This document shows, piece after piece, positions 25,973 through 55,631 of a DNA stretch of 64,000 bases. The notes below the pieces were generated by a model, which ran no database searches, was not told where the DNA came from, and was given only the letters and a program-made list of their open reading frames with translations. Each line of letters begins with the position of its first letter. Positions within the stretch are counted from its first letter, which is position 1. Origin of the DNA: a virus; the IMG/VR virus record IMGVR_UViG_3300045922_001133, positions 1,996 to 65,995 of that record; one strand, 5' to 3'. Position numbers and translations under genes: made by a program.

Positions 25973-26653
25973 ATGGGAAGCACGGACCTGTACGTCACGC
26001 CGGCAGAAGCCGCTGAACTCCTCGGCGTATCCGTGGAGATGGTGCACGTCTACGACCGCAAGCAGCTCCTCGAGGCGTACTACCCAAACGGGCGAAAGGC
26101 CGGGAAGCGATTCCTCGCCGAGGACGTCTACGCGCTCGTCGAGCTCCGGCAGGAGCACAAAGGGGACTTCCTCCGAAGGCTTCCGCAGATCGCGATGCGC
26201 GCGGTCGTCACGAGCCGGCGTGTCGAGAAGCGCCTCGACGAGCTCATGCAGTTCCTGGGGTTGAACGACGTGGTCCTCCCCCTCGACGCCACTTCCATCG
26301 CACTGCTGCACTTCCAGGTCGAGAAGGCACTGGCACAGCCGCGCGTCGAAGACCAGCAGGAGCTTCTCGACTGGGCGAAGAAGCTCCTCGCGATCAACGA
26401 AGAGTACCTCGACCTCGTGAAGCTGCATCTCGGCGACGAGTACCCCTGGAAGCCGTACCTGGACCTGGCGCGGAAGCTCTCGGAGGCATGCGGGGGACGG
26501 CAGCGCAGCTTCCTCGAGCACGCGCGGGCGAACCTCCGGAACGTGGCCTACTTCTACGAGCGCTCGTGGCGCGGGCCGAAGGAGGCCGAGAAGCTGTTCC
26601 CGGGGGAACGCTACTCCGGCCGACTCCTTCGGCGCGTGCTGACGGACGCCTAG
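25973..26653 (+). CDS. MerR/excisionase-type helix-turn-helix DNA-binding protein
   Basis: YVTPAEAAELLGVSVEMVHVYDRKQLL...GKRFLAEDV; GGGAG RBS; antisense to the late block. Confidence 0.75.
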   Translation: MGSTDLYVTPAEAAELLGVSVEMVHVYDRKQLLEAYYPNGRKAGKRFLAEDVYALVELRQEHKGDFLRRLPQIAMRAVVTSRRVEKRLDELMQFLGLNDVVLPLDATSIALLHFQVEKALAQPRVEDQQELLDWAKKLLAINEEYLDLVKLHLGDEYPWKPYLDLARKLSEACGGRQRSFLEHARANLRNVAYFYERSWRGPKEAEKLFPGERYSGRLLRRVLTDA

Positions 26654-29600
26654 CCCTGATAGAGCGGTCCGGTGTAACCGGAGTACTGCGGGCCGACGTT
26701 CTCGTACTCCCTCTTCGGCGCGATGATGTCCGGACGCGGGCGCACGATCATCGACCCGAGGAAGCAGTAGAGAATCGAGTGGAACGAGTCATCCGGGCGG
26801 TCCGGGCGGTGCTGGTACTGGATCATCCGCAGCGTCTCGTTGTACTCGCTGAAGATGTTCAGCATGTCCTGCGCGTAGGGCTGGTGGAACTCCTCCCAGC
26901 GGGGGAACTCGAACTGCCCGCGCTTAATAGCGGCGAAGATGTCGCTCATCACCTCGGTGCGGTGCACGAGGAAGCGGGCGAGCCGATCGTCGCGGTAGAC
27001 CTTCTTCTTCACGCGAGCCTGGTATTGGAACTTGTGGAAGCGCGCGGGACCGAACTCGCGGACGAGGACGTTGTTGCTCGCGAAGCCGCCGCCGTAGTCG
27101 GCAGCGATGATGCGGCAGTTGAAGGCCCGGATGATGGCGACGATCTTCGAGATCTGGATCTGCGGGTCGACGTCCTCGCCGGTGAATCGGTGAATCCAGA
27201 AGATGCGGAACCGATGCCCCTCGTAGTATCCGAGCGACATCACGGTGTAGCTGTTCTCGCCGGTGTTGCCTTGGTACGAGATGCAGCCGTTGCGCTCCGT
27301 GACGATGTAACCCGTCGGAACAGAGCAGCAGTACACCTTGCCGTTGTATGGCACCCGCTCAACCGAAGAAGACGGCGTGTTGAGCTGGTAGTCCCTGCCC
27401 TCGGACCAGGACACCCGCCACTGCGCTTTGCGGTTCCCGTTCGCCTCCTTGTGGGGACGAAGTACGGCGCGAAGCCCGAGTCGGATGCAGATCTCCTGGA
27501 AGTCTTCGCAGAGCCCCTTCGAGGTGGAATAGAAACTTCCGCCGGTGTTGCCGGGCCGAGGATCGATAGAACCATCACCGCCGACCATCGCACGCCAGAG
27601 AATCCAGAGCTGGCGCTGGCTGAGCCGAAGGAACTCACGCGGGATACGCTTCTCTGCTCCCGTACGCCCTACGTTCTCGGCGTACCAGTGCCAGTACTGC
27701 TTGCCGTAGATGGTCCAGTTGACGTCACCCGTCTTCGGGTTCAGGAACGCCTTGTACGGTATCTGCATCCGATCGAGGCATGCCTGAATCCGTTCGCAGA
27801 CGTGCGCGTTGACCGTTCTCCGTTGAGACATCTTCAGGCACGAGGGCCTGTCACCGTCGAAACAGAGGCCACCTTCGGTCACGAGGTACCCGAGGAGCTC
27901 AAGCCAGTCGTCCATCGAGAACGTGCGTTCGTCCGAACCGGAGTACCCGGGGCTGATCGGGAGGCCGGGCAGGGTAAAGTAAGGTACTTCTTCACCACGC
28001 CATGTGACCGAACCCACGAACTTCACGTTGCCGCCGCGCTTCACGGTCTCGCCGGCCGCTTCCGTGACCCACTTCCCGCTGGGCAGAGGGTTCACCCGCA
28101 TCCGATGGGTGTCGGTCACCATGAGATCAAGACCATCGCGCGTCTTGAAGTGAAGAAGTGGCCTGTCCCAGTCTCGGATGGTCCGGACCTTCGGGGTCAC
28201 GAACGTCATCTCCCGCGTGTCCGGATCCCACTGCGCAACCTTGTCGTCGGCCTTCAGGTCGCGGAAGTACTTGAAGCCAGTCTCGGTGAGGATGCGCGTC
28301 TCTTCGTCATGGCAGCCCCAGTCGATGCCGGCGAAGACTTCCGTCCCGTTGAGCAGCATCTTCCGCGTGCGCTCGACGGCGTCGGGGTGCATCGTGAGCT
28401 GCGGATTGCAGCAGTCCTTGATCTGCCCCATCGTCAGCGGACGAAGGCCCGAGTCGTACGAGATGCCGAGCACCTCGTTGTAGAACTTGTCGCGAGAGTA
28501 GCGGCTGTAGTCGAGGAGGATCTCGTCCCAGGGCCGCCAGGGGACCATGAGCTGCGGGATGCGGTAGCTCTCGAAGATGCCGTCAGCGACCATCTGCGCC
28601 CACTGCGCCTTCTCGTGCATCGGGTTGATGAGCGACCCGCACTTCTCGCAGATGAGACCCTTGCGACCGATGTTCTTCTCCGAAAGCACGTTCCAGTGCA
28701 TCCCGGTCTCGCCGCCGTGCTTGTCGCAGGGGACGACCCACTCGCCCTGCGTCGACATCGGCTTGCCGTCTTTCGACACGCCGGAGCGGTAGTACTCGAT
28801 GGGGTTGTCGAGGCCCTTTGGCGTACCGGCGTAGATGAACCGCCTCATCTGCTCCGGCGCGTGGGACGTGCACTGCTCGATGACGGGGATGTTGTCCGCT
28901 ATGATGTCCTGGAGCTCGTCGAGCGCGAGCAGCCAGGCAGGGATGCCTCGAGTGTTGTGGATGAACATCCCGTCGACGAGGTAGTTCTCCGTCTCGCTCA
29001 CGGTCAGGTCGTAGGTCTGAGCCTCGCCCGCCGGGTCGATGCTTGTGATGCGCGCCCATCCAAGCTCGCTTTCGGCGAGGCTGGTGAGGTAGGCGTCCTC
29101 GAGCTTCCGGGCAATCTCGGCGAGGACGCGGCGACCGATCGACGTCTTCGTGTTGCCAGGACGGAGCTGGATCTTGTGCTTCATCCACGCCGAATGGGTC
29201 GTCAGACCGTGGGCGCGTTTGAGGTAAGCGCGGAGATCGGCATAGGAAAGCGGGATGCGGTCGGCGTCGTCCTTCTTCCTGCTGACCAGGCACGCGGCCT
29301 GGTACACGGACGCAAAGGCTTCCTCCTTGCCGAGGACGGGGATCTGCTCACAGAAGGCCTTCACGGAGGCCGCGGAGCGGATCGACAGGACGTAGGCGCC
29401 CTGGGCTCCCGCCGTAGACGGCTTCTTCTGGCGGCTGACCCAGGAGACAACGCCGAACCGAAGGAGAAGGACCTTCAGGTCGTGCAGAAGTCCGAGCGAG
29501 TTGGATGCATAGCCGATCTCGAACTGCCGTCGTGAGCTCAAGCTCGCCCAGCCATCCGTCGCATAGATCGCCCCGAGCAGGGCAGCTACCTGCGCTTCGT

Positions 29601-30825
29601 TCCCGGTGAAGAAAGCAGAAGGCACGCGCTTGGTCGCGTGGTTCTGGCCAATGAGGCCAAGCTCCCGGAGGCGCTTCTTGTAGCCCTGGATACCTCCAAA
29701 GATTCCCTGCCGCTTGGTCTCGCTTTCGACCCAGTGGGCGCGGTTGCTGTCCTGGAGTTTCCCGAGCTTGGCTCCGAGGGCCTGGGCGCACCGCTGAAAA
29801 TCGGACATGACGACCGGGCAGCCGTTGAAGAAGGCCACCCCGTTGAACGTCGTCAGCGAGCCGTCTCCCAAGAGGTAGCCCACAAGGCGGTACTCCTCGA
29901 TGGGAATCTCGTTACCGCTACCGTGCGCGGAGCGGCGGGGCACAGCGACGTAGTCCCCGACGTGAAGGTCTTTGACCTGTCGCCAGCCGTTCCACGTCAG
30001 GAGAGGCTGGTTGTCCGTACACGTCGTCTCTGCCCCAGCTTCGAGGCGAACGGTGAAGACGGGGCGTCGACCTTGGTAGACGACGTCCTCGAGCTGGGCA
30101 GGGACCGGCTTGAGGGCTTCGGGATCGGCAGACCAAACCCAGCGGCCCACGTAGCTCGCCGGGTCGTCGTAGATCTCCTTCAGGGTCGCGACCGCACCAT
30201 CCGTGAAGTGCACGCGCGTGCTGCCGATCGCGCAACGGTCGGCGTTGAGGAACGCGTAGCGCATCGTGATCTTGGCGCGGTTCACGAACTGCTTCTCGAG
30301 GATGTTCATCGAGAGCGCGTTCGTCGTGTACGCCTTCAAGATCGGACTGGTCTCGATCGGCTCCTTGATACGGTCGCTCGAGAAGGTCTTCGTCTGCGTC
30401 GCTGACGGCGAGACGTATAGCGTCTTGTAGCCGGGGATGAGGCAGGAGTACGTCAGGATGATGTTGCCGAGGAGCGTCGACTTCTCGACCTGGCGCCCGC
30501 AGAAGAGCAGCACGCGCTTCGCCGGCGTGTTGTAGGGCCGCTTCATGTGACGGCGGCCCTCGAACGTGAAGTTCTCGTAGCCCGTGCCGTCCGCCTTCGG
30601 CATGCGGAAGGCGAACTCGGTGAACTGGCTTGGATAGATCGCGGGGATCTTCTCGAGCTTCTTCGCCTTGAACTCGATGTCGAGGAAGTCCTCGAAAGGC
30701 TCGGGCTCGGGCATCCAGGGCATGCCGTCCTGCATGCACTGGAGCTCTTCGTCGGTGAACTCGACGGGGTCGAGATCCTCCTCCCCCGGCGGCTGCCTCT
30801 CGATGTCTCTCTGGACCGCGTACAT
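26650..30825 (-). CDS. terL: terminase large subunit (gpA-like), with two inteins
   Basis: 1391-aa precursor, 614 aa mature; Walker A region CGRQVEKST; RG...LALDE Walker B; Zn ribbon PCDKH...CEKC; nuclease GIDWG and PDDSFHS. Confidence 0.9.
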   Translation of the reverse strand: MYAVQRDIERQPPGEEDLDPVEFTDEELQCMQDGMPWMPEPEPFEDFLDIEFKAKKLEKIPAIYPSQFTEFAFRMPKADGTGYENFTFEGRRHMKRPYNTPAKRVLLFCGRQVEKSTLLGNIILTYSCLIPGYKTLYVSPSATQTKTFSSDRIKEPIETSPILKAYTTNALSMNILEKQFVNRAKITMRYAFLNADRCAIGSTRVHFTDGAVATLKEIYDDPASYVGRWVWSADPEALKPVPAQLEDVVYQGRRPVFTVRLEAGAETTCTDNQPLLTWNGWRQVKDLHVGDYVAVPRRSAHGSGNEIPIEEYRLVGYLLGDGSLTTFNGVAFFNGCPVVMSDFQRCAQALGAKLGKLQDSNRAHWVESETKRQGIFGGIQGYKKRLRELGLIGQNHATKRVPSAFFTGNEAQVAALLGAIYATDGWASLSSRRQFEIGYASNSLGLLHDLKVLLLRFGVVSWVSRQKKPSTAGAQGAYVLSIRSAASVKAFCEQIPVLGKEEAFASVYQAACLVSRKKDDADRIPLSYADLRAYLKRAHGLTTHSAWMKHKIQLRPGNTKTSIGRRVLAEIARKLEDAYLTSLAESELGWARITSIDPAGEAQTYDLTVSETENYLVDGMFIHNTRGIPAWLLALDELQDIIADNIPVIEQCTSHAPEQMRRFIYAGTPKGLDNPIEYYRSGVSKDGKPMSTQGEWVVPCDKHGGETGMHWNVLSEKNIGRKGLICEKCGSLINPMHEKAQWAQMVADGIFESYRIPQLMVPWRPWDEILLDYSRYSRDKFYNEVLGISYDSGLRPLTMGQIKDCCNPQLTMHPDAVERTRKMLLNGTEVFAGIDWGCHDEETRILTETGFKYFRDLKADDKVAQWDPDTREMTFVTPKVRTIRDWDRPLLHFKTRDGLDLMVTDTHRMRVNPLPSGKWVTEAAGETVKRGGNVKFVGSVTWRGEEVPYFTLPGLPISPGYSGSDERTFSMDDWLELLGYLVTEGGLCFDGDRPSCLKMSQRRTVNAHVCERIQACLDRMQIPYKAFLNPKTGDVNWTIYGKQYWHWYAENVGRTGAEKRIPREFLRLSQRQLWILWRAMVGGDGSIDPRPGNTGGSFYSTSKGLCEDFQEICIRLGLRAVLRPHKEANGNRKAQWRVSWSEGRDYQLNTPSSSVERVPYNGKVYCCSVPTGYIVTERNGCISYQGNTGENSYTVMSLGYYEGHRFRIFWIHRFTGEDVDPQIQISKIVAIIRAFNCRIIAADYGGGFASNNVLVREFGPARFHKFQYQARVKKKVYRDDRLARFLVHRTEVMSDIFAAIKRGQFEFPRWEEFHQPYAQDMLNIFSEYNETLRMIQYQHRPDRPDDSFHSILYCFLGSMIVRPRPDIIAPKREYENVGPQYSGYTGPLYQG
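27265..28314 (-). mobile_element. intein 2 in TerL (LAGLIDADG, 350 aa)
   Basis: Starts CHDEETRI after GIDWG, ends ISYQGN, +1 Thr; LLGYLVTEGG and WRAMVGGDGS. Confidence 0.9.
28954..30234 (-). mobile_element. intein 1 in TerL (LAGLIDADG, 427 aa)
   Basis: Starts CAIGSTRV after NADR, ends MFIHN, +1 Thr; LVGYLLGDGS and LGAIYATDGW. Confidence 0.93.
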
Positions 30826-36700: not shown

Positions 36701-39700
36701 TCAGTAGTGGTGCTCCGGGACGTTCTTCAGGTGACCGAAGCCCGGACGCAGGTGATGGGCCCGCGTGAGCCCAAGCTCGGCGCCGTAGGCGATGGCAGGG
36801 ATGGGGTGAGTGCCGTGGATGTTCGACCGGCTTCCGAGGGCGGCTGCCTCCGCAATGGTCGATCGCAGCTTCTGGTGCTGCAGCTTCGCCATCCAGTCCT
36901 CCTGGAGCGAAAGCGGCATCATGTTGATGCCCTTCAGGACGGGCGTGTGCTCGATCGGGCGTCGGCCGGCCTTCACAAGCTCGCTGTTCTGCTTCTGGAC
37001 GACGGACAAGGGCTGGAACTCCCCGCGAAGAACACCGACGGCGTCCCCGGGGTGGACCACCTTGGTGAGGTTCGACATCGCCTTCACGACGGTCTCGATG
37101 TGCCGGCGCTTGATCCCCTCATCCTTGTACAGGTCGTACATCTCCGAGACCAGGTGGTTCTGCACCTTGTCGATACTACCAGTCGCCTTGTAAAGGTCGT
37201 GGGGGTTCACGAACGTCCGGGCCGGGTCGGAGAGCGGTGAGCCCGCGGTGACGTACTGCCCGACCTTGAGCCCAGTCCAATTCGAGCTCCCGTAGGGCTG
37301 ATGAAGCGGGTGGCCGGCGGCGTCCTTGCCGACGAAGTGCTTCTTGCCATTGATGTAGACATTCGCGCCCGTTGACGTCGGTTCGATCTTCTCGATCTTG
37401 CCGCTCGTCATCGCGAGGCTCGCCGCGTTGGGGATCTTCTTCGGCAGCATGGTGAGCTGCTCGAAACGCGCGAAGCTGTTCAGGAGCTTCCCGCCCGACT
37501 GCTCGACGACGCCACCGGTGTGGAAGCTCTTCAGGGTGAGCTGCACCGCGCGCTCGCCGACGGCGTGCGCCGCGTGGATGCCTGCGTTCGTCCCGACATC
37601 GTGGAAGTCCCCGTGCGATCCGACGCCGAGGCACTTCTGGCAGATACCCTTCTCGTGCTCGCACTTCAGCGGGCTCCGGACGAGGAGCTTGGCGTTCTTG
37701 TCGACCGCCTTGATCTGTCCCGTAATGTCCGGAGTGAGCACGGTGCCCGCCTTCACGTGGAGCTTGCCGTGCGTGAAGTCCTGCGCGAGCACCCGGTCGT
37801 GGATGTCCTTCTCGTGGACGCCCATCGCGATCCCGCGCGTGGTACCGCAGTCCTTGCTGCCCACGAGGAGGTCCATCGTGTTGTTCATGAGGAGCTTCGA
37901 CATGTAGCCGGGCTCCTGGACCTCCTGGACCTTGAGCACGGAGCCGCGGCGAGCGCCGTGCATCTGCGTCCAGTACGAGCCGACGTCGAGGCCCTCGGAG
38001 TAGCTCTTCGTGACCGGCATGGGGATGACCCGGTCGGAGGAGTCCTTCAGCAGCATCGGCGCGAGGACCATCTGCTTGTACTGGTCCCACCCAGGCTTCA
38101 CGCCCGCCTTGTACATCGTGAAGAGATTCGTCGGCTTCTTCTCGAGCTTCTTCTCGTGAAGGGCCTTCATCTCCTGGTCGGCCTTCGAGTAGATGGCGAC
38201 GATCCGCCGGTTCTTCTCTGCCTCGGGGAGAGGCGAGCTCCGGATCGCCGCAGCCTCCTTGTCGGCCTTCGAGAGCACTTGGTTTCGGACGGTCTTGTCG
38301 GCGGCGAAGTCCGCGAGCCCGAGGGAGTGCGTCCCGATCGGGACGAAGACGTTCTTCTTCGGGTCGGTGAGGTTCGCGATCGTCGTGTGTGGCAGCGGAA
38401 CGGCGACGGCGCCGAAGGACGCGTCGTTACCGAGGTCCTTCAGCCTGTTCACCGCGCGGTCGAAGTCCGCCTTGTGGTCCTTGCCGAGGCGGGTGAGCAG
38501 CCCCTCGAGGCCCTTCTTGTCGAGCCGGTGGTCGAGGTTGTAGAGGATGTCGTCCTGCATCGCCGGCGGCAACGCGGTCGAGAGAAGCACACGACCCGGC
38601 GTCGTCTTCTTGCCGTTCAGCGAGACGACATCATCGTGCTTGAGCTTGCCCTGGCGAACCGCGTCGAGCACGGCGCCGGGGTTCGAGAAGCTCTTGCCGG
38701 TGTCCTTGCCGGTAAGCGAGAGCTTGTAGATGCCGAGCGCGCTCTCGAGCGTCGGGCTGAAGGCGATCTTGCCGGTGCTCTCTGCGAAGAGGTTCTGCGT
38801 CGGCTTCATCTTGTGCGCCTCGTTCACCGCCTCACGGGAGATGGGAACGAAGACGCTCATCGTGTTGGACAAGACCACCCCGTCAACGGACATGAAGGTC
38901 TCGAAGCCGGGTACGGTCAAGTCGTAACCGTTCTCAACGATGCCAGTCTTTTCGAAGGACACAACACGGTCCCAGCGAACTCCCATGTCACGCGCAAGAC
39001 AAGACCATCGCCAGAAACACTCGTTCTCGCTGGGAAGGGTTGGAATACGGTCGAGAATCTCCAGAGCGGAAGAACGAGACACGTACTCCCGATCCATCGC
39101 GTTTGACAAAACCACATACACGGACTGACCGAGCGAGGTTCCAATGCGATCCCGGAGCTGCTTCGCCACTCCACGCGGCGTCGGGATGATGTCCAACCGC
39201 GCATGAGCCTGTTTCCGGGAAGGACAAGGCCCTTGAATGAAGGAACGGAATGCCTCCGCCTTCTTTACGTGATTGAGGGGCAGCTCCCCGAGGGTGTGAA
39301 AGTCCACGGTCGAGAAGTTTACCGTCCAAACAGGCTGCTTCTTCAGCGTTTTGCCCGCGGTCATCTTCGCCCGAACAGAAAGAGAACGGGCGAGGGACAC
39401 AACTTCATAGGCCAGTCGCGTACTTGTCGTACTGAGGCTGATGAGGTACTGCGGCTTGTCCTTGGCATTGCTGACGCTGATCGACCCATCCGTGTCGATC
39501 AACCCAGCAAGTAGGCCGAGGCGGAAGTCCCGCGGAGCCGTCAGGAAGAAGGGCGGAAGGTGCTTCTGCGCGGCACCGTGGCCGATCAACGGCGCGATGA
39601 ACTTGGCGGCGGCCGTCGAGTTCACCACGTAACGACGACTCTCGACCGATTCCCCGAAGTCCCCACCAATACGCTCGGTAAGAGACACCAAAGGGATCTC

Positions 39701-42700
39701 CTTGAACAGCGCGAGAAGATCTTGCGTAAAGCCAACAGCAACACTGCTCTCGGCGGCAGCGATAGCCACCCCCTTCAAGGTGCCATTGGCACGAACAACC
39801 CAACCATCCCCGACCAGCGTACCGAGAAGCCGACCCGCTCGAGCATCGAGGTCGAAGGAAGCGCGAAGACGATCATCGCCTTCTGGCAGGGGGAGAGCCC
39901 GACGCGACGTCTTTACTTCCCCGTCCGCCATGACGGGAACAAACAAGCCCAAAGACTCACTCGGGCGCCTCCGCACGAAGTTGAGGTCAGAGTCGAGACC
40001 GTAAACCGCTCGCGGGTCGTCGTCGGTAACGATCTGGCGACCCGACGCCAACGTCACGATCTCCACCAAGCGGCCCGTGTGCCTCGACCAATAGCGCACG
40101 TCAGCAAGAGTCAACTTCTTCGTTTGCTCGTCGAAGGCAAGAACCTGAAGGCCCTCAGGCACAGGATGGAAGTCGATGTGACCTTGGGTGACCTTCTCTT
40201 CAGCGTGGGGGAAGTCCGCCAGGTCGCAGAAGTAGAAGTCCCCCTGGAACACGTACCCAACGAGCTCATGAAACCACGCGGCCATCTCCGGCCCCACCTT
40301 TCGAAGAGACCACCACAGGGCATCCGGCCACGGCGCCTCTCCAAGGTGGGTAGCACGGACTTTCCCTTGGGCAAGTCCGCGTTGCATGACAGAATCGCGG
40401 ACAAACAGGACTACTTGACCAAGTTGCTGGTCGCCGTCGAAGTCAGCGTTGAAGCCGCCGCAGACGAGCGGGTGGATCTTGATGGCGTTGCCCTCGACAG
40501 CCTTCGCCTGGAAGGCCTGCACCGAGTACTTGTGCAGCGCCGGGTCTCGCTTCAGGAGCACCGGACGCTCCTCCATCACCTTGTCGAGCGCGCGCCAGAC
40601 GGGTTCGCTCCTCTGCGCGAGCATCTTCTGGGCGTCGAGCGGCGTCGGCGCGGCGCCCATCTCCTGAAGCTTCTTCACGACGAAGGGCCGGAAGAGGTCG
40701 AGCGCGTGCGTCTTCGGCAGACCGACCTCGTCGAGGCCGAGCGCAGGCTCGGGGACGATCGTCGAGCGCATCGTGAGATCCTGGCGCTTCTGGACGAGAG
40801 CGCGCTGGAAGAACCCGCTCTTCGGGCTCGCACCGGAGAGCATGTGGAGCAAGCCCTTGTGCTCCGCGTCCTTGTACGGGATGCCGTAGCCGATGATGGC
40901 CTTCACGCCATCGTAGAGGTTCCGGCGAAGCTCGCTCTTCCGGCTCTCGGTGAAGTTCCGGAGGATGGTCGGGTCCTTGAGCTGGTCGTTGACCTGCGCG
41001 AAGTCCGAGTAGAGCTGGTTGATGTCGGCGTACTTGATGTTGCCGTCTTGCATCAACGACGCGGGGCGCATCACTGGCGGGATGACCGGGATGTTCTTCA
41101 GGATGTACGCCTCGTGCGGCTTCATCCCGAGCTGGTCGAGGGCCCTGAGGTACTTCACCTTCTTCAGGAGCGGGTCGACGTCGGCAGCCTTCGCGTTGTT
41201 GAGCGCGGTCTGCGCCTTCGAGAGCTCTTTCTTCACGTCGATCTGCTTGAGCATGTGCTCGATCGCGTGACCACCCGTGAAGACGCCCTTGCCGAGGTTA
41301 GCGAGCGTGCCGTTCGGATGGATACCCTTCTCACCGGCGATGACAGCGTTGAAGTCCTTCTGCGATAGCCCGGTGAGCACGCGGATGGGCGTCTCGAAGA
41401 GGGGGTTCGGCACCGGCTCGGCGAGCGGGATGCGCGACCACTTCGTGCCGCCGTGACCACCGGTGAGCTTCTCGTCGAAGAGGCCGCCCGGCCGCGGCTT
41501 GAGCTCGCCGGTATTCTTGTCGATCTTCGCCTCGAGCCGCTCGCCCGGCCTCGGCAGGACGCGATCGCCGGTGAGCTCGAGGATGTGCTTGTCGGTGAGC
41601 GGCGAGAGGACGAACTCGTGGCCCTTCTTCTCGATGTTCACGCCGGCGCCGCGAAGCAGGTCCTCGAACTTCTTGAAGGCGAACGTGGGCTTCGGCGTCG
41701 GCAGCGGCTCGCCCGTCTGGATGGCCTTCCACACCTGGTTGTGCTGGCTCGGCCAGCGCTTCGCCTCGTTCGTCTGCGGGTCCGGGCCTTCGCCCTTCCA
41801 CGTCTGCATCTCGCGCAGGTTTGCCTTCGCGCCGTGCGCGAGGAGCGCGTACATGCCGAGCGTGCCGATGCGCTGCCCGGTCTTCGGCTGCAAGTTGATG
41901 TCGTACTTGTCCGTGGAGGGCAGACCCGGGAGGCCCATGCCCGGCGCGACGGCGACCTTCTTGTCAACCTGGTGGACGAGCTTGAGAATGTGCTGCTTGC
42001 CGACAAGGGCCTTGCCGAGCGGCTGCCCCGTGACCGGATCGTAGATATCCTCCTGGTCGGAGAGGCCGTGCTTCTTCAGCTCGGCCTGCACGTGCGCGAC
42101 CATGTCGGCGTCCTTCTGGAACGACGGCGCGACATAGGACTTGCCGAGCTTCTCGGCGATCTTCGACGCGGCAGTCTCGAGGACCTGGCCGACGTTCATG
42201 CGCCCGGGCACACCCGACGGATTGAGCGCGACCTCGATGTGCTTGCCGTCCTTCGTGCGGGGCATCTCCTTGTCCGGGAGGATCATCGTGACGATGCCCT
42301 TGTTGCCGTAGCGGCCCGCGATCTTGTCGCCGACCTGCATCGGCTCGATGGTCTTCACGTGGACCTGGATGCCGTCCTTGCTCCTCGTGATGCCAACGAC
42401 CTCGCCTTCCCCTTCACCGTCCCAGCGGAGGCTCTTGTCGGTGTGCGTGCCGGTGATGCTCTTGCGGATCGCGGCGACGCCCGTGCGGTCCTTGATCTCG
42501 AAGGGCTTCACGGCGAGGATGAGCGGGTCGCCTGGGCGCACGCGCGCGCCGATCTTCGGCAGGCCGTCCTCCCCGATGTGCTCCATCTGGTCCTTCTTGA
42601 AGAGGCCCGGATGATGGATCTCGAACTTCCGACGCCCGAGGATGGTCTTCTCGTCGACAGCGAGCACCGGCTTGTAGAGGTGCACCGAGGCGAGCTTCTT

Positions 42701-44638
42701 CGCCGCGCTCTCCGAGATGACGACGCCGTCCTCGAAGTTGTAGCCCTTGAACGGGATGTACGCGACGCGGAGATTCGTCCCGAGAGCGAGGGTGCCGTTC
42801 TTCGAGAAGTTCGTGTCGGCGATGACCTGCCCCGCCTTCACGCGGTCACCGACCTTCACCGTCGGTGTCGAGTGGAGAACGCTCTTCGCGTCGTTGAGCG
42901 GGTAGTTGTTGTAGATGTGGACCTCGCGGATCTTGCCATCCTTACCCTTGAGCACGATGGCGTCCGACTTCACCGCGTGAACGACACCATCGATGGGTGC
43001 CTGGTGAGACGCCTGCGTCCCGAGCACGCGCTCGAACGAGTTCATGTTCGGCTTGTCGACGCCCGTCGAGACCTGAACGAGCGGCTCCTCGCGATGGAGG
43101 AGCGAGATGGCCTGCTCGATGTGGCGACTCGCCATCGACGCGCGGTTGCCTGACGTGTTCCCGAGGAACGGGATCAGGTTCGACGTCATGTTGAAGAGCT
43201 GGCTCGGGTGGCGCATCACGTAGTGCGCGTCGTCGAACTTCCCGTCCTTCATCTCGTTGTTCGGCCCGACGATCTTCACCGTCGATCCGATCGGCCTCGG
43301 CTTGCCGTTCTCCCACTTCACCTGATCGGGGAGAACGACGTTCTTCGTCACGAAGTCGCCGGGGGAGACGAGCTCGGTCTGCTGCGTCTTCAAGTTGTAG
43401 AGCGGGATCTTCGGCTCGTTGCCGACCTTCTTCACGCCGAGCGGCAGGCGAAGCGTCACGCCGGTCTTCGAGCCCTCGGGCGTGTGGATCGGGTCGAGGA
43501 AGCCGAGGTGCGACGGGTTGACGAACTTCGCTTCGTCGGTGATCGACTTCTCGCTCTTGATGCCGCCGGGACCCATGATGGTCGTCTGGAGCGAGCTCGA
43601 GACCATCTCCACAGGGTTGATCTGCGTGGCGATGCGCGCGGCGCTGTTCTTGTGGAACGTCTGCTTGATCGGGTCGTTGAAGAGGTCGAACTTGACGATG
43701 TCCCGGATGTCGTTCGCCTGGTTGATCTTGCGCGCGGTCTTCGCCGATATGACCTTCGCCGCGCCCCTGAGCTTGTCGAACACGAAGTCGCCAGCGGAGC
43801 GGAGGTCCTTGAACATGAGGCTGTCGCGGTCGTCCTCCGGGTGACCACTCTGGACCTTCATCAACTTCTGCGCTGCGAGAAGTAGCGCTTCACCGTTCAC
43901 GTGGTCGATGGGCTTGCCGAGCGTGAGCGCCGTCGCCTCGGGGCGCATCTTCGACCCAACGAACGTCTCGTAGAGGTGCTTCTCCGCGATCTCCTTCGAG
44001 GGCGGAGCCTCGCGGCGGTCCGTCTTGTAGAACTTCTCCACCGTGCCGGCGACGCCGCGAGCGTTCTTGTTCGCTTCGAACACCTCCTTGCCGAGCGCCT
44101 TCTCGATCGTGTGGTCGTCGAGACCCATCACCTTGAAGATCGGGTACGCCGGAAGCTTCGCCTTGTTGTACTCGATGACGAACTGCTTCGTGCCCGGATC
44201 GAACACCATGTCGAACGGCGTCTTGTTCGCGACGTTGAAACGAGTCTCGAGCTCGCCGTTCTGGCGACGCCGTGTGTAGGCGCCGGGCTTGAGCTGCCAC
44301 TGGTTGTCGATCTGGTACTCCTGCCCATCGAGGATGTAGGAGTAGCGCTGCGTCTGCTTCGGGATCTCCGCGAGGCGGATACGACGGCGGTCGACCGTCT
44401 TCCCGGTGATGTTGTCGACGAGCTCGAGCTCGCCGAAGACGGGCACGGCGTACGACCCACCCTCGACCTTCGCCTTGTGCTGCAACCGCAGGTCGTCGGG
44501 GTGAAGATCATCCTTCACTTCGATCTTCTTCAGGTAGAGCGTCTGGAGCTTTCCCTTGATCGGGAAGTGGCTCTGGATGCCCTCAATCGTCCTGTCGCGG
44601 AAGTGAGCGAACGCCTCCGCCGGATCCAGGTAGGCCAT
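36701..44638 (-). CDS. phage multisubunit RNA polymerase, beta-beta' fusion, with one intein
   Basis: Start at MAYLDP; 2645 aa. Beta motifs: NPSHLGFLDPIHTPEG, GYNFEDG, GDKIAGRYGNKG, NPSGVPGRMNVGQ, GQRIG. Beta' motifs: PVIPPVMRP, LLKRDPALH, NADFDGD, bridge helix RRGSV...PGYMSKLL, trigger loop GERAVQLTLKSFHTGG. Junction near 41620. Confidence 0.95.
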   Translation of the reverse strand: MAYLDPAEAFAHFRDRTIEGIQSHFPIKGKLQTLYLKKIEVKDDLHPDDLRLQHKAKVEGGSYAVPVFGELELVDNITGKTVDRRRIRLAEIPKQTQRYSYILDGQEYQIDNQWQLKPGAYTRRRQNGELETRFNVANKTPFDMVFDPGTKQFVIEYNKAKLPAYPIFKVMGLDDHTIEKALGKEVFEANKNARGVAGTVEKFYKTDRREAPPSKEIAEKHLYETFVGSKMRPEATALTLGKPIDHVNGEALLLAAQKLMKVQSGHPEDDRDSLMFKDLRSAGDFVFDKLRGAAKVISAKTARKINQANDIRDIVKFDLFNDPIKQTFHKNSAARIATQINPVEMVSSSLQTTIMGPGGIKSEKSITDEAKFVNPSHLGFLDPIHTPEGSKTGVTLRLPLGVKKVGNEPKIPLYNLKTQQTELVSPGDFVTKNVVLPDQVKWENGKPRPIGSTVKIVGPNNEMKDGKFDDAHYVMRHPSQLFNMTSNLIPFLGNTSGNRASMASRHIEQAISLLHREEPLVQVSTGVDKPNMNSFERVLGTQASHQAPIDGVVHAVKSDAIVLKGKDGKIREVHIYNNYPLNDAKSVLHSTPTVKVGDRVKAGQVIADTNFSKNGTLALGTNLRVAYIPFKGYNFEDGVVISESAAKKLASVHLYKPVLAVDEKTILGRRKFEIHHPGLFKKDQMEHIGEDGLPKIGARVRPGDPLILAVKPFEIKDRTGVAAIRKSITGTHTDKSLRWDGEGEGEVVGITRSKDGIQVHVKTIEPMQVGDKIAGRYGNKGIVTMILPDKEMPRTKDGKHIEVALNPSGVPGRMNVGQVLETAASKIAEKLGKSYVAPSFQKDADMVAHVQAELKKHGLSDQEDIYDPVTGQPLGKALVGKQHILKLVHQVDKKVAVAPGMGLPGLPSTDKYDINLQPKTGQRIGTLGMYALLAHGAKANLREMQTWKGEGPDPQTNEAKRWPSQHNQVWKAIQTGEPLPTPKPTFAFKKFEDLLRGAGVNIEKKGHEFVLSPLTDKHILELTGDRVLPRPGERLEAKIDKNTGELKPRPGGLFDEKLTGGHGGTKWSRIPLAEPVPNPLFETPIRVLTGLSQKDFNAVIAGEKGIHPNGTLANLGKGVFTGGHAIEHMLKQIDVKKELSKAQTALNNAKAADVDPLLKKVKYLRALDQLGMKPHEAYILKNIPVIPPVMRPASLMQDGNIKYADINQLYSDFAQVNDQLKDPTILRNFTESRKSELRRNLYDGVKAIIGYGIPYKDAEHKGLLHMLSGASPKSGFFQRALVQKRQDLTMRSTIVPEPALGLDEVGLPKTHALDLFRPFVVKKLQEMGAAPTPLDAQKMLAQRSEPVWRALDKVMEERPVLLKRDPALHKYSVQAFQAKAVEGNAIKIHPLVCGGFNADFDGDQQLGQVVLFVRDSVMQRGLAQGKVRATHLGEAPWPDALWWSLRKVGPEMAAWFHELVGYVFQGDFYFCDLADFPHAEEKVTQGHIDFHPVPEGLQVLAFDEQTKKLTLADVRYWSRHTGRLVEIVTLASGRQIVTDDDPRAVYGLDSDLNFVRRRPSESLGLFVPVMADGEVKTSRRALPLPEGDDRLRASFDLDARAGRLLGTLVGDGWVVRANGTLKGVAIAAAESSVAVGFTQDLLALFKEIPLVSLTERIGGDFGESVESRRYVVNSTAAAKFIAPLIGHGAAQKHLPPFFLTAPRDFRLGLLAGLIDTDGSISVSNAKDKPQYLISLSTTSTRLAYEVVSLARSLSVRAKMTAGKTLKKQPVWTVNFSTVDFHTLGELPLNHVKKAEAFRSFIQGPCPSRKQAHARLDIIPTPRGVAKQLRDRIGTSLGQSVYVVLSNAMDREYVSRSSALEILDRIPTLPSENECFWRWSCLARDMGVRWDRVVSFEKTGIVENGYDLTVPGFETFMSVDGVVLSNTMSVFVPISREAVNEAHKMKPTQNLFAESTGKIAFSPTLESALGIYKLSLTGKDTGKSFSNPGAVLDAVRQGKLKHDDVVSLNGKKTTPGRVLLSTALPPAMQDDILYNLDHRLDKKGLEGLLTRLGKDHKADFDRAVNRLKDLGNDASFGAVAVPLPHTTIANLTDPKKNVFVPIGTHSLGLADFAADKTVRNQVLSKADKEAAAIRSSPLPEAEKNRRIVAIYSKADQEMKALHEKKLEKKPTNLFTMYKAGVKPGWDQYKQMVLAPMLLKDSSDRVIPMPVTKSYSEGLDVGSYWTQMHGARRGSVLKVQEVQEPGYMSKLLMNNTMDLLVGSKDCGTTRGIAMGVHEKDIHDRVLAQDFTHGKLHVKAGTVLTPDITGQIKAVDKNAKLLVRSPLKCEHEKGICQKCLGVGSHGDFHDVGTNAGIHAAHAVGERAVQLTLKSFHTGGVVEQSGGKLLNSFARFEQLTMLPKKIPNAASLAMTSGKIEKIEPTSTGANVYINGKKHFVGKDAAGHPLHQPYGSSNWTGLKVGQYVTAGSPLSDPARTFVNPHDLYKATGSIDKVQNHLVSEMYDLYKDEGIKRRHIETVVKAMSNLTKVVHPGDAVGVLRGEFQPLSVVQKQNSELVKAGRRPIEHTPVLKGINMMPLSLQEDWMAKLQHQKLRSTIAEAAALGSRSNIHGTHPIPAIAYGAELGLTRAHHLRPGFGHLKNVPEHHY
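38864..40429 (-). mobile_element. atypical intein (Gln1, LAGLIDADG, 522 aa) in the RNAP catalytic motif
   Basis: Inserted in NADFDGD|TMSVFVP; ends GYDLTV...GVVLSN, +1 Thr; LLGTLVGDGW and LAGLIDTDGS; lower GC3 than the flanks. Confidence 0.88.
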
Positions 44639-44693
44639 GGGGGCAGGGTACTCCACGCCGCGGAAACGCAGCAAGACGCGCACACGCAGAGAG

Positions 44694-44709
44694 ATAAGGA
44701 CTTCGAGGG
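44694..44709 (+). promoter_or_regulatory. candidate phage promoter motif ATAAGGACTTCGAGGG
   Basis: 14/16 identical to 54373-54388; both lie about 30 nt upstream of the first gene of a plus-strand unit. Confidence 0.5.
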
Positions 44710-44739
44710 CGCACACGAAACGCCGCCCTGGGAGTCGTC

Positions 44740-55298: not shown

Positions 55299-55631
55299 AT
55301 GACCCACCGGGTACATCTCCGAAAGGATCTGACCGGGGAAGCCTCCGGACGGCTCACCGTTCTAGGCATCTCCGAGAGAACAAGAAGCGGGACCATATGG
55401 CGTTGCCGATGCTCCTACGGGACTGAGGTGAGGGTCTACTCGTTCAACCTCACCAGGGGCCAACAGGTCTCTTGTGGCTGCTTCGAGAACTTCTTGAGGG
55501 ACATGGGACCTCGCCCAGCCCCCAAGCTCACGATCGAGCGCAAGAACAACAACGGGCCGTACGCTCCCTGGAATTGCCGATGGGCTACCCGGAAAGAGCA
55601 GAGGAGAAACGATGCGCGTCGTCCGGCGTGA
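55299..55631 (+). pseudogene. internally deleted HNH homing endonuclease
   Basis: DLTG..GRLTV..WRCRCSYG..L.RG..SCGC joined directly to FENFLRDMGPRP..TIERKNNNGPYAPWNCRWAT; the usual intervening segment appears absent. Confidence 0.7.

What the first reader, a model, noticed from the sequence alone, without database searches (positions are those of the whole stretch)
38864..40429. Non-canonical Gln1 intein interrupting the RNAP active-site loop (NADFDGD|T)
Seen: a 522-aa insert begins QQLGQVVL, aligning to block A (compare CVSGDTVL) but with Gln instead of Cys or Ser. The block-B region reads IVTDDDPRAV with no His, block F has Asp (GYDLTV), the end is LSN with no penultimate His, and +1 is Thr. 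Removal restores NADFDGD-TMSVFVP, matching cellular NADFDGD-QMAVHVP. Known: class 1 needs Cys1/Ser1; class 2 (KlbA) uses Ala1 with Cys+1; class 3 needs a block-F Cys. This element fits none. The RNAP is presumably essential and the insert abuts the third Mg-binding Asp. Inference: it either splices by an undescribed route (for example direct Thr+1 attack, or activation via Asp-1) or is tolerated or removed some other way.
Basis: partly seen in the sequence, partly recalled or inferred. Interest (0 to 1): 0.88.

Follow-up and report, generated by a model that had tools for sequence, protein, structure and literature searches.

The report
Nucleophile-less intein in phage RNA polymerase
A self-removing protein insert (intein) sits right after the magnesium-binding NADFDGD motif of a phage RNA polymerase; it belongs to a large, conserved, apparently undescribed clade that lacks the usual first-residue nucleophile, so it must come out by chemistry not covered by the three known intein classes.

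Summary
Window 38864-40429 (minus strand) encodes a 522-aa LAGLIDADG intein directly after NADFDGD in a 2671-aa fused beta/beta' RNA polymerase of an uncultured phage. It starts with Gln. It has Asp at the block-B His position, Glu at the block-F His position, and ends Ser-Asn|Thr.

It is neither an assembly error nor a dead copy:
- Independent metagenomes carry the same Gln codon.
- One metagenome also holds the exact intein-free allele.
- The nearest RNAP relative (89.5% identical) has no intein.
- This copy matches the consensus at all 72 columns that are at least 90% conserved.

It belongs to a clade of at least 224 clusters at 50% identity, all at this one site. In that clade residue 1 drifts freely (12+ residues, about 38 changes on the tree). 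Asp-1, a His at 117, TDDDxR, Ser-Asn and Thr+1 are invariant or nearly so. A sister clade keeps Cys1/Ser1 and ends in Asp. Some clade members are naturally split into two genes.

It fits none of classes 1, 2 or 3. My best reading is splicing without a residue-1 nucleophile, most likely by attack of Thr+1 on the Asp-1 carbonyl; this is not shown. This scan noted related odd inteins at this motif on other DNA. I found no paper describing the clade.

The parts
36701..44716 (-). Host gene: 2671-aa single-chain beta/beta' RNA polymerase of the phage
   Evidence: ORF and translation. Pfam Rpb2_6 1.7e-61, Rpb1_2, Rpb1_5. It is the only RNAP hit on the 66-kb viral contig.
40430..40450 (-). N-extein end: catalytic Mg-binding motif NADFDGD; Asp-1 is the third Asp
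   Evidence: Translation. Asp at -1 occurs in every family member found.
38864..40429 (-). The intein, 522 aa, Gln1 to Asn522
   Evidence: An intein-free DNA allele skips exactly these 1566 nt. Fold matches TliVMA, PI-PkoII, PI-PfuI and PI-SceI inteins.
40397..40429 (-). Block A strand QQLGQVVLFVR; residue 1 is Gln (non-nucleophile)
   Evidence: It aligns column for column with the Cys1/Ser1 of the sister clade. It forms a strand in the model, and position 1 superposes on residue 1 of solved inteins.
40244..40396 (-). Family-specific helical insert between block A and the rest of the Hint fold (intein aa 12-62). It holds the WW..R and M-x-A-R motifs. Relatives that are split into two genes are broken here.
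   Evidence: Helices in the model, with lower pLDDT of 63-76. Conservation of M49, A51 and R52. Split relatives L003, L006 and L007 start their second gene at the Met49 equivalent.
40274..40276 (-). Trp52 codon. Other strains and 56 of 69 homologues have Arg here.
   Evidence: A>G at 40276 in runs X9, X10 and X11. P0002 has Arg. Column counts.
40079..40090 (-). WSRH: Ser115 and His117, invariant or nearly so in both clades. His117 is a candidate 'NX-motif' His of oxyester inteins.
   Evidence: S 68/69 and H 69/69 in this clade, 16/16 each in the sister clade. It aligns with Arg72-His73 of the Ser1 intein PI-PkoII. The NX motif is described in PMC10189870.
40010..40027 (-). Block B TDDDPR: Thr135 (B:7), Asp138 in place of the B:10 His, Arg140 in place of the class-3 Trp (B:12)
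   Evidence: D136 68/69, D138 69/69 and R140 69/69; all three are invariant in alignment A2.
39218..39859 (-). LAGLIDADG homing-endonuclease domain; motifs at 39797-39841 and 39482-39517 keep their acidic residues
   Evidence: Pfam LAGLIDADG_3 1.7e-10 and Hom_end 2e-6. I-DmoI and I-Tsp061I align to model 203-416 at Z 15-16. hhalign to the window's own canonical intein gives 97% probability.
38885..38929 (-). Block F GYDLTVPGFETFMSV: Asp503 at F:4 (Cys in class 3), Glu510 where Ssp DnaB has His
   Evidence: Alignment to the Ssp DnaB intein. D503 69/69 and E510 68/69.
38864..38884 (-). Block G DGVVLSN: Ser521 in place of the penultimate His; terminal Asn522
   Evidence: S521 and N522 are 69/69 and 87/87 among true members of a larger set.
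38861..38863 (-). Thr+1, first residue of the C-extein
   Evidence: T in 87/87 intein-bearing alleles of this clade, against T 96, A 9, V 5, S 2 in 112 intein-free alleles.

Best explanation
This is a working, mobile intein from a large clade that lives only at the NADFDGD|T site of phage RNA polymerases and no longer uses its first residue as a nucleophile. What is shown: the Hint fold and the endonuclease domain are intact, the copy is under purifying selection, and intein-free and intein-bearing alleles coexist. What is inferred: the 58-kDa insert must be removed for the polymerase to work. Removal is by protein splicing that starts with a hydroxyl attack on the Asp(-1)-Gln1 peptide bond by something other than residue 1. 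I think the attacker is most likely Thr+1 itself, an all-oxygen counterpart of the class-2 (KlbA) route. In that scheme the scissile bond is activated by invariant His117 and by the carboxylate/Arg cluster (Asp136-138, Arg140, Asp503, Glu510) that replaces the usual histidines. Asn522 cyclisation and an O-to-N acyl shift would then complete ligation to NADFDGD-TMSVFVP. My odds: any residue-1-independent splicing about 0.75; the Thr+1 direct-attack version about 0.4.
For: Fold:
- The AF2 model has pLDDT 90.5.
- It superposes on mini-inteins at 1.9-2.8 A over about 155 residues, with residues 1 and 522 on the canonical termini.

Selection:
- This copy shows 0 deviations at the 72 columns that are at least 90% conserved.
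- Strain variants avoid conserved columns.
- Extein dN/dS is 0.147 against the intein-free relative.

Mobility:
- The closest RNAP (P0095, 89.5% identical over 2149 aa) lacks the intein, while the hosts of the nearest inteins are only 46-55% identical.
- A contig in run X11 carries the exact empty site beside intein-bearing contigs.
- The LAGLIDADG motifs are intact.

Residue 1 is not used:
- It takes 12 or more residue types.
- There are about 38 changes on a tree of 83 inteins, and only 3 changes of nucleophile state.

The C-terminal chemistry is kept:
- Ser521, Asn522 and Thr+1 are invariant in 87 members.
- Intein-free alleles tolerate Ala or Val at +1 (Fisher p about 8e-5, not corrected for phylogeny).

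No Cys column is conserved, so an oxygen nucleophile is needed. His117 matches the His that PMC10189870 found critical in Ser1/Thr+1 inteins and able to make the block-B His dispensable.
Against: - No biochemical or proteomic evidence of a ligated product exists.
- Direct attack of a Thr hydroxyl on an unactivated amide is chemically demanding and has no precedent in inteins; class 2 and class 3 both use thiols.
- I could not read atom distances from the model, so the closeness of Thr+1, His117 or the Asp cluster to the scissile bond rests on block homology alone.
- Thr+1 is also the commonest residue (86%) in empty alleles, so its invariance is suggestive, not proof.
- This copy has Trp at the usually Arg position 52.
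Confidence: 0.4

Rival explanations
1. Extein-assisted route. The side-chain carboxylate of Asp-1 (the third catalytic Asp) attacks its own backbone carbonyl. This forms a cyclic anhydride and releases the intein N-terminus. Thr+1, or the freed alpha-amine after Asn522 cyclisation, then opens the anhydride to give the normal peptide bond.
For: - Every one of the several hundred family members sits behind an Asp, and no member was found in any other protein or site.
- Residue 1 is unconstrained.
- The histidines are replaced by carboxylates and an Arg that could position or protonate.
- An extein -1 residue can compensate for the block-B His in another intein (PMC6333167, abstract listed).
- Asp-X cleavage through an anhydride is established peptide chemistry (my own knowledge).
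Against: - Asp-1 is fixed by polymerase function anyway, so its invariance says nothing about splicing.
- The sister clade at the same site keeps Cys1/Ser1.
- Opening an anhydride risks an isoaspartyl link at a residue that must bind Mg.
- No intein is known to work this way.
Confidence: 0.17
2. Class-3-like route with a relocated oxygen nucleophile. An internal Ser or Thr (Ser521, Ser115, Thr505 or Thr511) attacks the N-terminal junction and forms a first branched ester. That ester is then passed to Thr+1.
For: - Ser521 is invariant in this clade, is Trp or Gln in the sister clade that keeps Cys1/Ser1, and so co-varies perfectly with loss of the residue-1 nucleophile.
- Thr505 is always Thr, Ser or Cys.
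- Class 3 shows that a second internal nucleophile is a workable solution (PMC2807308).
Against: - The class-3 position F:4 is Asp here.
- Ser115, Thr505 and Thr511 are equally conserved in the sister clade, so they are not specific to the loss.
- Ser at the penultimate position may simply replace His in helping Asn cyclisation.
Confidence: 0.13
3. Excision without ligation. Asn522 cyclisation frees the C-terminal part and the N-terminal junction is hydrolysed. The polymerase then works as two non-covalently associated pieces broken right after NADFDGD.
For: - Phage multisubunit RNAPs tolerate split beta' (my own knowledge).
- Relatives encode the two halves as separate genes broken inside the intein.
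- Terminal Asn is conserved.
Against: - Thr+1 is invariant only in intein-bearing alleles, which cleavage alone does not require.
- N-terminal hydrolysis still needs an unexplained catalyst.
- No natural RNAP split at this position without an intein was seen among 112 empty alleles.
Confidence: 0.1
4. Non-splicing relic. Either the insert stays in the protein and is tolerated, or this allele gives a dead polymerase.
For: - Pfam does not recognise the N-terminal Hint half.
- All three textbook catalytic His residues and Cys1 are missing.
- This copy has Trp52 instead of Arg.
Against: - Hundreds of intact members with invariant junction residues occur in phage contigs of up to 200 kb from many habitats.
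- This copy has 0 deviations at conserved columns.
- The extein is under strong purifying selection.
- A 58-kDa domain in the catalytic loop has no precedent among RNAP lineage-specific insertions (my own knowledge).
Confidence: 0.05

Closest known systems
Class 1 Ser1/Thr+1 'oxyester' inteins with the NX-motif His (PI-PkoII/PI-TkoII, Psp Pol-1, PolB16 OarG; PMC10189870)
   Same: Both have a Hint fold with a nested LAGLIDADG endonuclease, with best full-length structural matches at Z 20 to TliVMA and PI-PkoII. Both have Thr+1, a terminal Asn and no catalytic Cys. A conserved Arg-His (R116-H117) aligns with Arg72-His73 of PI-PkoII. In PolB16 the block-B His is dispensable. The sister clade at the same site still has Ser1/Cys1.
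   Different: Residue 1 is Gln and is free to vary. The block-B His is replaced outright by an invariant Asp. The block-F and penultimate His are replaced by Glu and Ser. The basic residue before the His is present in only 41% of the clade.
Class 2 inteins (Mja KlbA type)
   Same: Both have a non-nucleophilic residue 1, Asp at block F:4 and a terminal Asn. The +1 residue is the presumed first attacker (PMC2807308).
   Different: KlbA uses Cys+1 and keeps the block-B and penultimate His. Here +1 is Thr and both His are gone.
Class 3 inteins (mycobacteriophage Bethlehem DnaB, WCT triplet; PMC2807308)
   Same: Both have a non-nucleophilic, variable residue 1 together with Thr+1, and both are phage-associated. 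The AceL NrdHF class 3 split intein superposes at Z 15.
   Different: None of the WCT triplet is present. B:12 is Arg140, F:4 is Asp503 and G:5 is Leu520. The essential block-B His is Asp.
CDC21-1 inteins (Pab, Pho, Tko)
   Same: They are the best mini-intein structural match (6rpp, Z 18.2, 1.9 A over 155 residues). From my own knowledge, the Tko CDC21-1 intein splices without the block-B His by a compensating residue.
   Different: They keep a residue-1 nucleophile and occupy a different host protein.
[quoted passage not shown]
   Same: Relatives of this intein are split into two genes with N fragments of 32-48 aa.
   Different: The window's copy is contiguous. The split relatives also lack a residue-1 nucleophile (Asp, Lys, Gln).
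Fused beta/beta' RNAPs of Salmonella phage Arash and Vibrio phage D69
   Same: These are the host protein family: 32% identity over 97% of the N-terminal 1430 aa.
   Different: That search covered only the part of the protein upstream of the intein (aa 1-1430), so it cannot show whether these phages carry an intein at this site. D181 and D148 show homing-endonuclease interruptions elsewhere.

Membership tests
Intein (Hint domain with nested homing endonuclease) | Hint fold with N and C termini adjacent, in frame in a conserved host site | tested here: met
   AF2 pLDDT 90.5. Foldseek E 6e-20 to the TliVMA intein. VIA Z 16-20 to many inteins, spanning model residues 10-535.
Intein (Hint domain with nested homing endonuclease) | Precise presence/absence polymorphism at the host site | tested here: met
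   Empty alleles P0095, P0109 and P0113. A contig joins 38863 to 40430.
Intein (Hint domain with nested homing endonuclease) | Demonstrated protein splicing | not testable with these tools
   No expression or proteome data. No RNA run holds the stretch.
Class 1 intein | Cys, Ser or Thr at residue 1 | tested here: not met
   Gln1 is confirmed in independent contigs. In the clade, 84 of 87 members have a non-nucleophile.
Class 1 intein | Block B Thr-x-x-His | tested here: not met
   T135-D-D-D138; Asp is invariant at B:10.
Class 1 intein | C-terminal Asn and a Cys/Ser/Thr at +1 | tested here: met
   Asn522 and Thr+1 are invariant in the clade.
Class 2 intein (KlbA) | Non-nucleophilic residue 1 with Cys+1 as first attacker and block-B His retained | tested here: not met
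   Residue 1 is non-nucleophilic, but +1 is Thr and B:10 is Asp.
Class 3 intein | WCT triplet: Trp B:12, Cys F:4, Thr G:5 | tested here: not met
   Arg140, Asp503 and Leu520. No Cys column is conserved in the clade.
Oxyester inteins with NX motif (PMC10189870) | Conserved His preceded by Arg/Lys, upstream of block B, near the N-terminal junction | tested here: inconclusive
   His117 is invariant (85/85) and the window has Arg116. Arg/Lys at 116 occurs in only 28 of 69 members. The equivalence rests on weak sequence alignments to PI-PkoII (E 0.0016 and 0.22) and on spacing.
LAGLIDADG homing endonuclease | Two LAGLIDADG helices ending in acidic residues | tested here: met
   LVGDGW and LIDTDGS. 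Pfam PF14528 1.7e-10. Columns D208, D312 and D314 are conserved. Cleavage activity was not tested.

The most novel reading that the evidence does not exclude
This clade is a fourth mechanistic class of inteins. It would splice with oxygen nucleophiles only and without any residue-1 nucleophile, block-B His or block-F Cys. It would be locked to one extein site, and its own catalytic Asp (Asp-1 of NADFDGD) and/or Thr+1 would carry out the first acyl transfer. It works both as a contiguous and as a naturally split element.
Probability: 0.55. Interest if true: 0.9.

Novelty: new variant of a known kind. Interest (0 to 1): 0.8.

Why it matters
Three splicing mechanisms are recognised for inteins, and every one depends on a Cys or Ser at residue 1, at +1 or in block F, plus a block-B His. 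This clade would be the first natural case that must break an ordinary peptide bond using hydroxyl groups only, with carboxylates in place of two of the three usual catalytic histidines.

It is large, widespread and well conserved, and it offers ready material for experiments:
- a contiguous form (this window);
- a sister clade with Cys1/Ser1 as a built-in control;
- naturally split forms with 32-48-aa N fragments.

A cysteine-free intein that does not depend on residue 1 would interest protein engineers, because it would relax junction requirements and work under oxidising conditions. It also bears on how an essential polymerase is matured in a widespread but uncharacterised group of phages of about 180-200 kb.

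Tried and rejected
1. Cys67 (FYFCDLADF) as the true Cys1, with a 66-aa leader retained. Its spacing to block B looked canonical. However, the column is not conserved (V, I, L, A or M in homologues), and the structural superposition puts Gln1 on residue 1.

2. An RNA-level element (small group I intron) in the variable N-terminal stretch. Rfam gives no match at E up to 1 over 38500-40800, and the stretch folds as helices in the model.

3. Assembly error at codon 1. Rejected by contigs from independent runs.

4. A decayed allele. Rejected: 0 deviations at conserved columns.

5. Class 3 membership. Rejected: no WCT triplet.

6. Profile comparison of the family with the window's own canonical intein. 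It aligned only the endonuclease domain, so it gave no block A or B mapping.

7. Pfam on the N-terminal 170 aa. Nothing found.

8. Search for family members in other host proteins or behind a residue other than Asp. None found among the 150 best of 372 representatives. Lower-ranked hits were not seen.

9. Literature. No paper holds both 'intein' and 'NADFDGD', and none holds 'class 4 intein'. Searches on phage RNAP inteins gave nothing specific.

10. Syn/nonsyn count among strain variants in the intein (8 synonymous, 15 non-synonymous). The sample is too small to be more than weakly indicative.

Full report
WHAT IS THERE

The window is most of a 66-kb viral contig, estimated 36% complete, GC about 64%. 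The minus-strand ORF 36701..44716 encodes a 2671-aa protein with beta (Rpb2_6, 1.7e-61) and beta' (Rpb1_2, Rpb1_5) domains in one chain. NADFDGD is aa 1423-1429. A 522-aa insert (aa 1430-1951, nt 40429..38864) follows directly and is itself followed by TMSVFVP.

IT IS A PROPERLY FOLDED INTEIN

An AlphaFold model built on 83 homologues has pLDDT 90.5 and pTM 0.90.
- Foldseek gives the TliVMA intein (E 6e-20), then PI-PkoII, PI-PfuI and PI-SceI.
- A second structural alignment gives Z 20 to those.
- It gives Z 16-18 to mini-inteins: PabCDC21-1 at 1.9 A over 155 residues, Pho RadA, Ssp DnaB and Mtu RecA.
- In those alignments model residue 13 (Gln1) lies on intein residue 1 and residue 534 (Asn522) lies on the terminal Asn.

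Gln1 therefore occupies the Cys1 position. By block alignment to Ssp DnaB the catalytic positions read:

| Position | Residue here | Usual residue |
|---|---|---|
| B:7 | Thr135 | Thr |
| B:10 | Asp138 | His |
| B:12 | Arg140 | Trp in class 3 |
| F:4 | Asp503 | Asp (Cys in class 3) |
| F:13 | Glu510 | His |
| G:6 | Ser521 | His |
| G:7 | Asn522 | Asn |
| +1 | Thr | Cys/Ser/Thr |

IT IS NEITHER AN ERROR NOR A DEAD COPY

The stretch occurs in 14 studies of hot-spring, microbial-mat, manure and bioreactor metagenomes.
- Contigs from independent runs X9 and X10 cover the N junction without any change at the Gln codon.
- In run X11, one contig joins 38863 to 40430, skipping exactly the 1566 nt. Other contigs of the same run carry the intein. 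The short side of that joint is only 28 nt.
- The joint agrees with the protein data. P0095, 89.5% identical over all 2149 extein residues, has no intein. The hosts of the most similar inteins are only 46-55% identical in the extein.
- Extein dN/dS against the P0095 gene is 0.147, and the 49 nt around the junction are nearly identical.
- The window's intein matches the consensus at all 72 columns that are at least 90% conserved.
- Fourteen of the 15 amino-acid differences among strains fall outside conserved columns. The fifteenth, W52R, moves towards the consensus.

THE FAMILY

A protein search found 786 relatives of this region. A profile of the N-terminal splicing half found 372 clusters at 50% identity: 224 at E<=1e-10 and 161 at E<=1e-30. 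Every listed hit whose upstream context I could read sits behind D-x-[D/N]-G-D of an RNA polymerase, and none is in another protein.

A tree of 83 inteins splits with full support into two clades:

| Feature | Sister clade (16 rows) | This window's clade (67 rows) |
|---|---|---|
| Residue 1 | Cys or Ser | Q, E, A, D, L, N, M, H, K, G, R, rarely C |
| C-terminal junction | (W/Q)-Asp\|Thr | Ser-Asn\|Thr |

In the window's clade residue 1 changes at least about 38 times on the tree, but its nucleophile state changes only 3 times. In contrast, Asp-1, Pro74, His117, Asp138, Arg140, Asp503, Ser521, Asn522 and Thr+1 are invariant, and Ser115, Asp136 and Glu510 are each 68/69. No Cys column is conserved.

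Thr+1 is present in 87 of 87 intein-bearing alleles. In 112 intein-free alleles the same position reads T 96, A 9, V 5, S 2. Fisher p is about 8e-5, not corrected for phylogeny. This pattern says that the side chain of residue 1 does nothing, while the C-terminal junction chemistry and the +1 hydroxyl are kept by selection.

A RETAINED HISTIDINE

His117 (WSRH) is invariant in both clades. Pairwise and profile alignments place it on Arg72-His73 of PI-PkoII, a Ser1 intein. Pasch et al. (PMC10189870) describe an 'NX motif' His with these properties:
- it is preceded by Arg or Lys;
- it is specific to Ser1/Ser+1(Thr+1) inteins that use oxyester chemistry;
- it lies beside the N-terminal scissile bond, opposite the block-B His;
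- it is critical for splicing;
- in PolB16 the block-B His is dispensable.

The window has Arg116-His117. Across the clade the basic residue is present in only 41%. I therefore read the family as descended from oxyester class-1 inteins whose N junction was already activated without the block-B His. The sister clade also has Asp at B:10. The equivalence of His117 with the NX His is an inference from weak alignments and spacing.

HOW IT LIKELY WORKS

Shown: the fold, the conservation, the mobility and the selection on the junction residues.

Inferred from established knowledge of RNAP architecture: a 58-kDa domain in the catalytic loop cannot be tolerated, so it must be removed.

Inferred from the residue pattern: the first acyl transfer cannot use residue 1 (class 1), Cys+1 (class 2) or a block-F Cys (class 3; PMC2807308).

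My ranking of the routes:
- Direct attack of Thr+1 on the Asp-1 carbonyl, helped by His117 and the Asp/Glu/Arg cluster: about 0.4.
- Asp-1 forming a cyclic anhydride that Thr+1 or the freed amine then opens: about 0.17.
- An internal hydroxyl, above all Ser521, which co-varies perfectly with loss of the residue-1 nucleophile, forming a class-3-like first branched ester: about 0.13.
- Cleavage at both junctions without ligation: about 0.10.
- A retained or dead insert: about 0.05.

None of these is tested. The tools gave no model coordinates, so I could not measure distances in the active site.

COMPARISON AND NOVELTY

The element is an intein by fold and by behaviour at the DNA level. It fails the defining residues of classes 1, 2 and 3 (see the membership table). 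Its nearest described relatives in chemistry are the cysteine-less Ser1/Thr+1 inteins with the NX His. Its nearest in logic are the class 2 and class 3 inteins that dispense with residue 1.

I found no paper on it. No paper holds both 'intein' and 'NADFDGD', and none holds 'class 4 intein'. The other literature searches also gave nothing specific. Absence from this library is not proof of absence from the literature.

Earlier notes of this scan describe other odd inteins at the same motif on other DNA (e1-1940409, e1-1940431, e1-5355373) and the same fused RNAP family (e1-3274104). I saw the first kind myself in P0117 and P0121. I rate the finding a new variant of a known kind, with a fair chance of being a fourth mechanistic class once tested.

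SIDE OBSERVATIONS

- Relatives in at least three lineages are naturally split into two genes inside the variable helical insert. The N fragments are 32-48 aa and the second gene has its own ribosome-binding site.
- The window carries five or six inteins in 64 kb. The others all start with Cys.

Noticed in passing
L003:5940-6030; L006:2960-3020; L007:820-900: Relatives of this intein are naturally split into two genes. Gene 1 is the RNAP N part plus 32-48 aa of intein, then a stop. Gene 2 starts at the equivalent of the conserved Met49 with its own Shine-Dalgarno sequence. The junction is an ATGA overlap in L003, an 11-nt overlap in L006 and a 15-nt gap with a GTG start in L007. Residue 1 in these is Asp, Lys or Gln. 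Fourteen contigs carry the L003-type protein.
   Followed up: partly
window 40274-40276 (minus strand, intein residue 52): The window has Trp52. Three other runs (X9, X10, X11), cluster representative P0002 and 56 of 69 homologues have Arg, within the conserved M-x-A-R motif. This could be a mildly impairing variant of this sample's strain.
   Followed up: partly
window 40283-40315 (minus strand): The conserved Met49 codon of the contiguous intein is preceded by AAGGTG...GGAG. An internal translation start like that of the split relatives is conceivable but was not tested.
   Followed up: no
proteins P0117 and P0121 (other contigs): A different intein clade at the same site reads NADFDGN|CYTG...VVWD|TM, so the third catalytic Asp is encoded as Asn. 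The same thing was noted earlier in this scan (e1-1940409, e1-1940431). P0110 reads NADFNGDS|CSPDTRIL...VTRN|TM.
   Followed up: partly
proteins P0299, P0306, P0309, P0315, P0320, P0333, P0339, P0348: RNAP hosts of the same intein clade have DFNGD or DHNGD, with the second catalytic Asp replaced by Asn.
   Followed up: no
window 26650-30825 (minus strand): The terminase large subunit appears to carry two inteins. The first (about aa 198-624) starts with Cys, has Gln at the block-B His position (TDNQ) and ends HN|T. The second (about aa 838-1187) starts with Cys and ends QGN|T, without a penultimate His.
   Followed up: partly
window 20164-24063 (minus) and 55612-57885 (plus): Two canonical Cys1...HN|Cys LAGLIDADG inteins lie in a 1299-aa virion or protease-like protein. 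One canonical HNH mini-intein lies in an SNF2-type helicase. That makes five or six inteins in 64 kb.
   Followed up: partly
window 40427-40498: Contig depth rises 10- to 60-fold here in all four runs. The short contigs with 4-10 mismatches are the NADFDGD-coding region of cellular rpoC genes cross-mapping. This is not a feature of the phage.
   Followed up: yes
protein P0153: An intein-free homologue of the fused RNAP (65% identical in the junction region) lies in the 13.6-Mb genome of the myxobacterium Pendulispora rubella. It is possibly a prophage and a hint at host range for the wider phage group.
   Followed up: no
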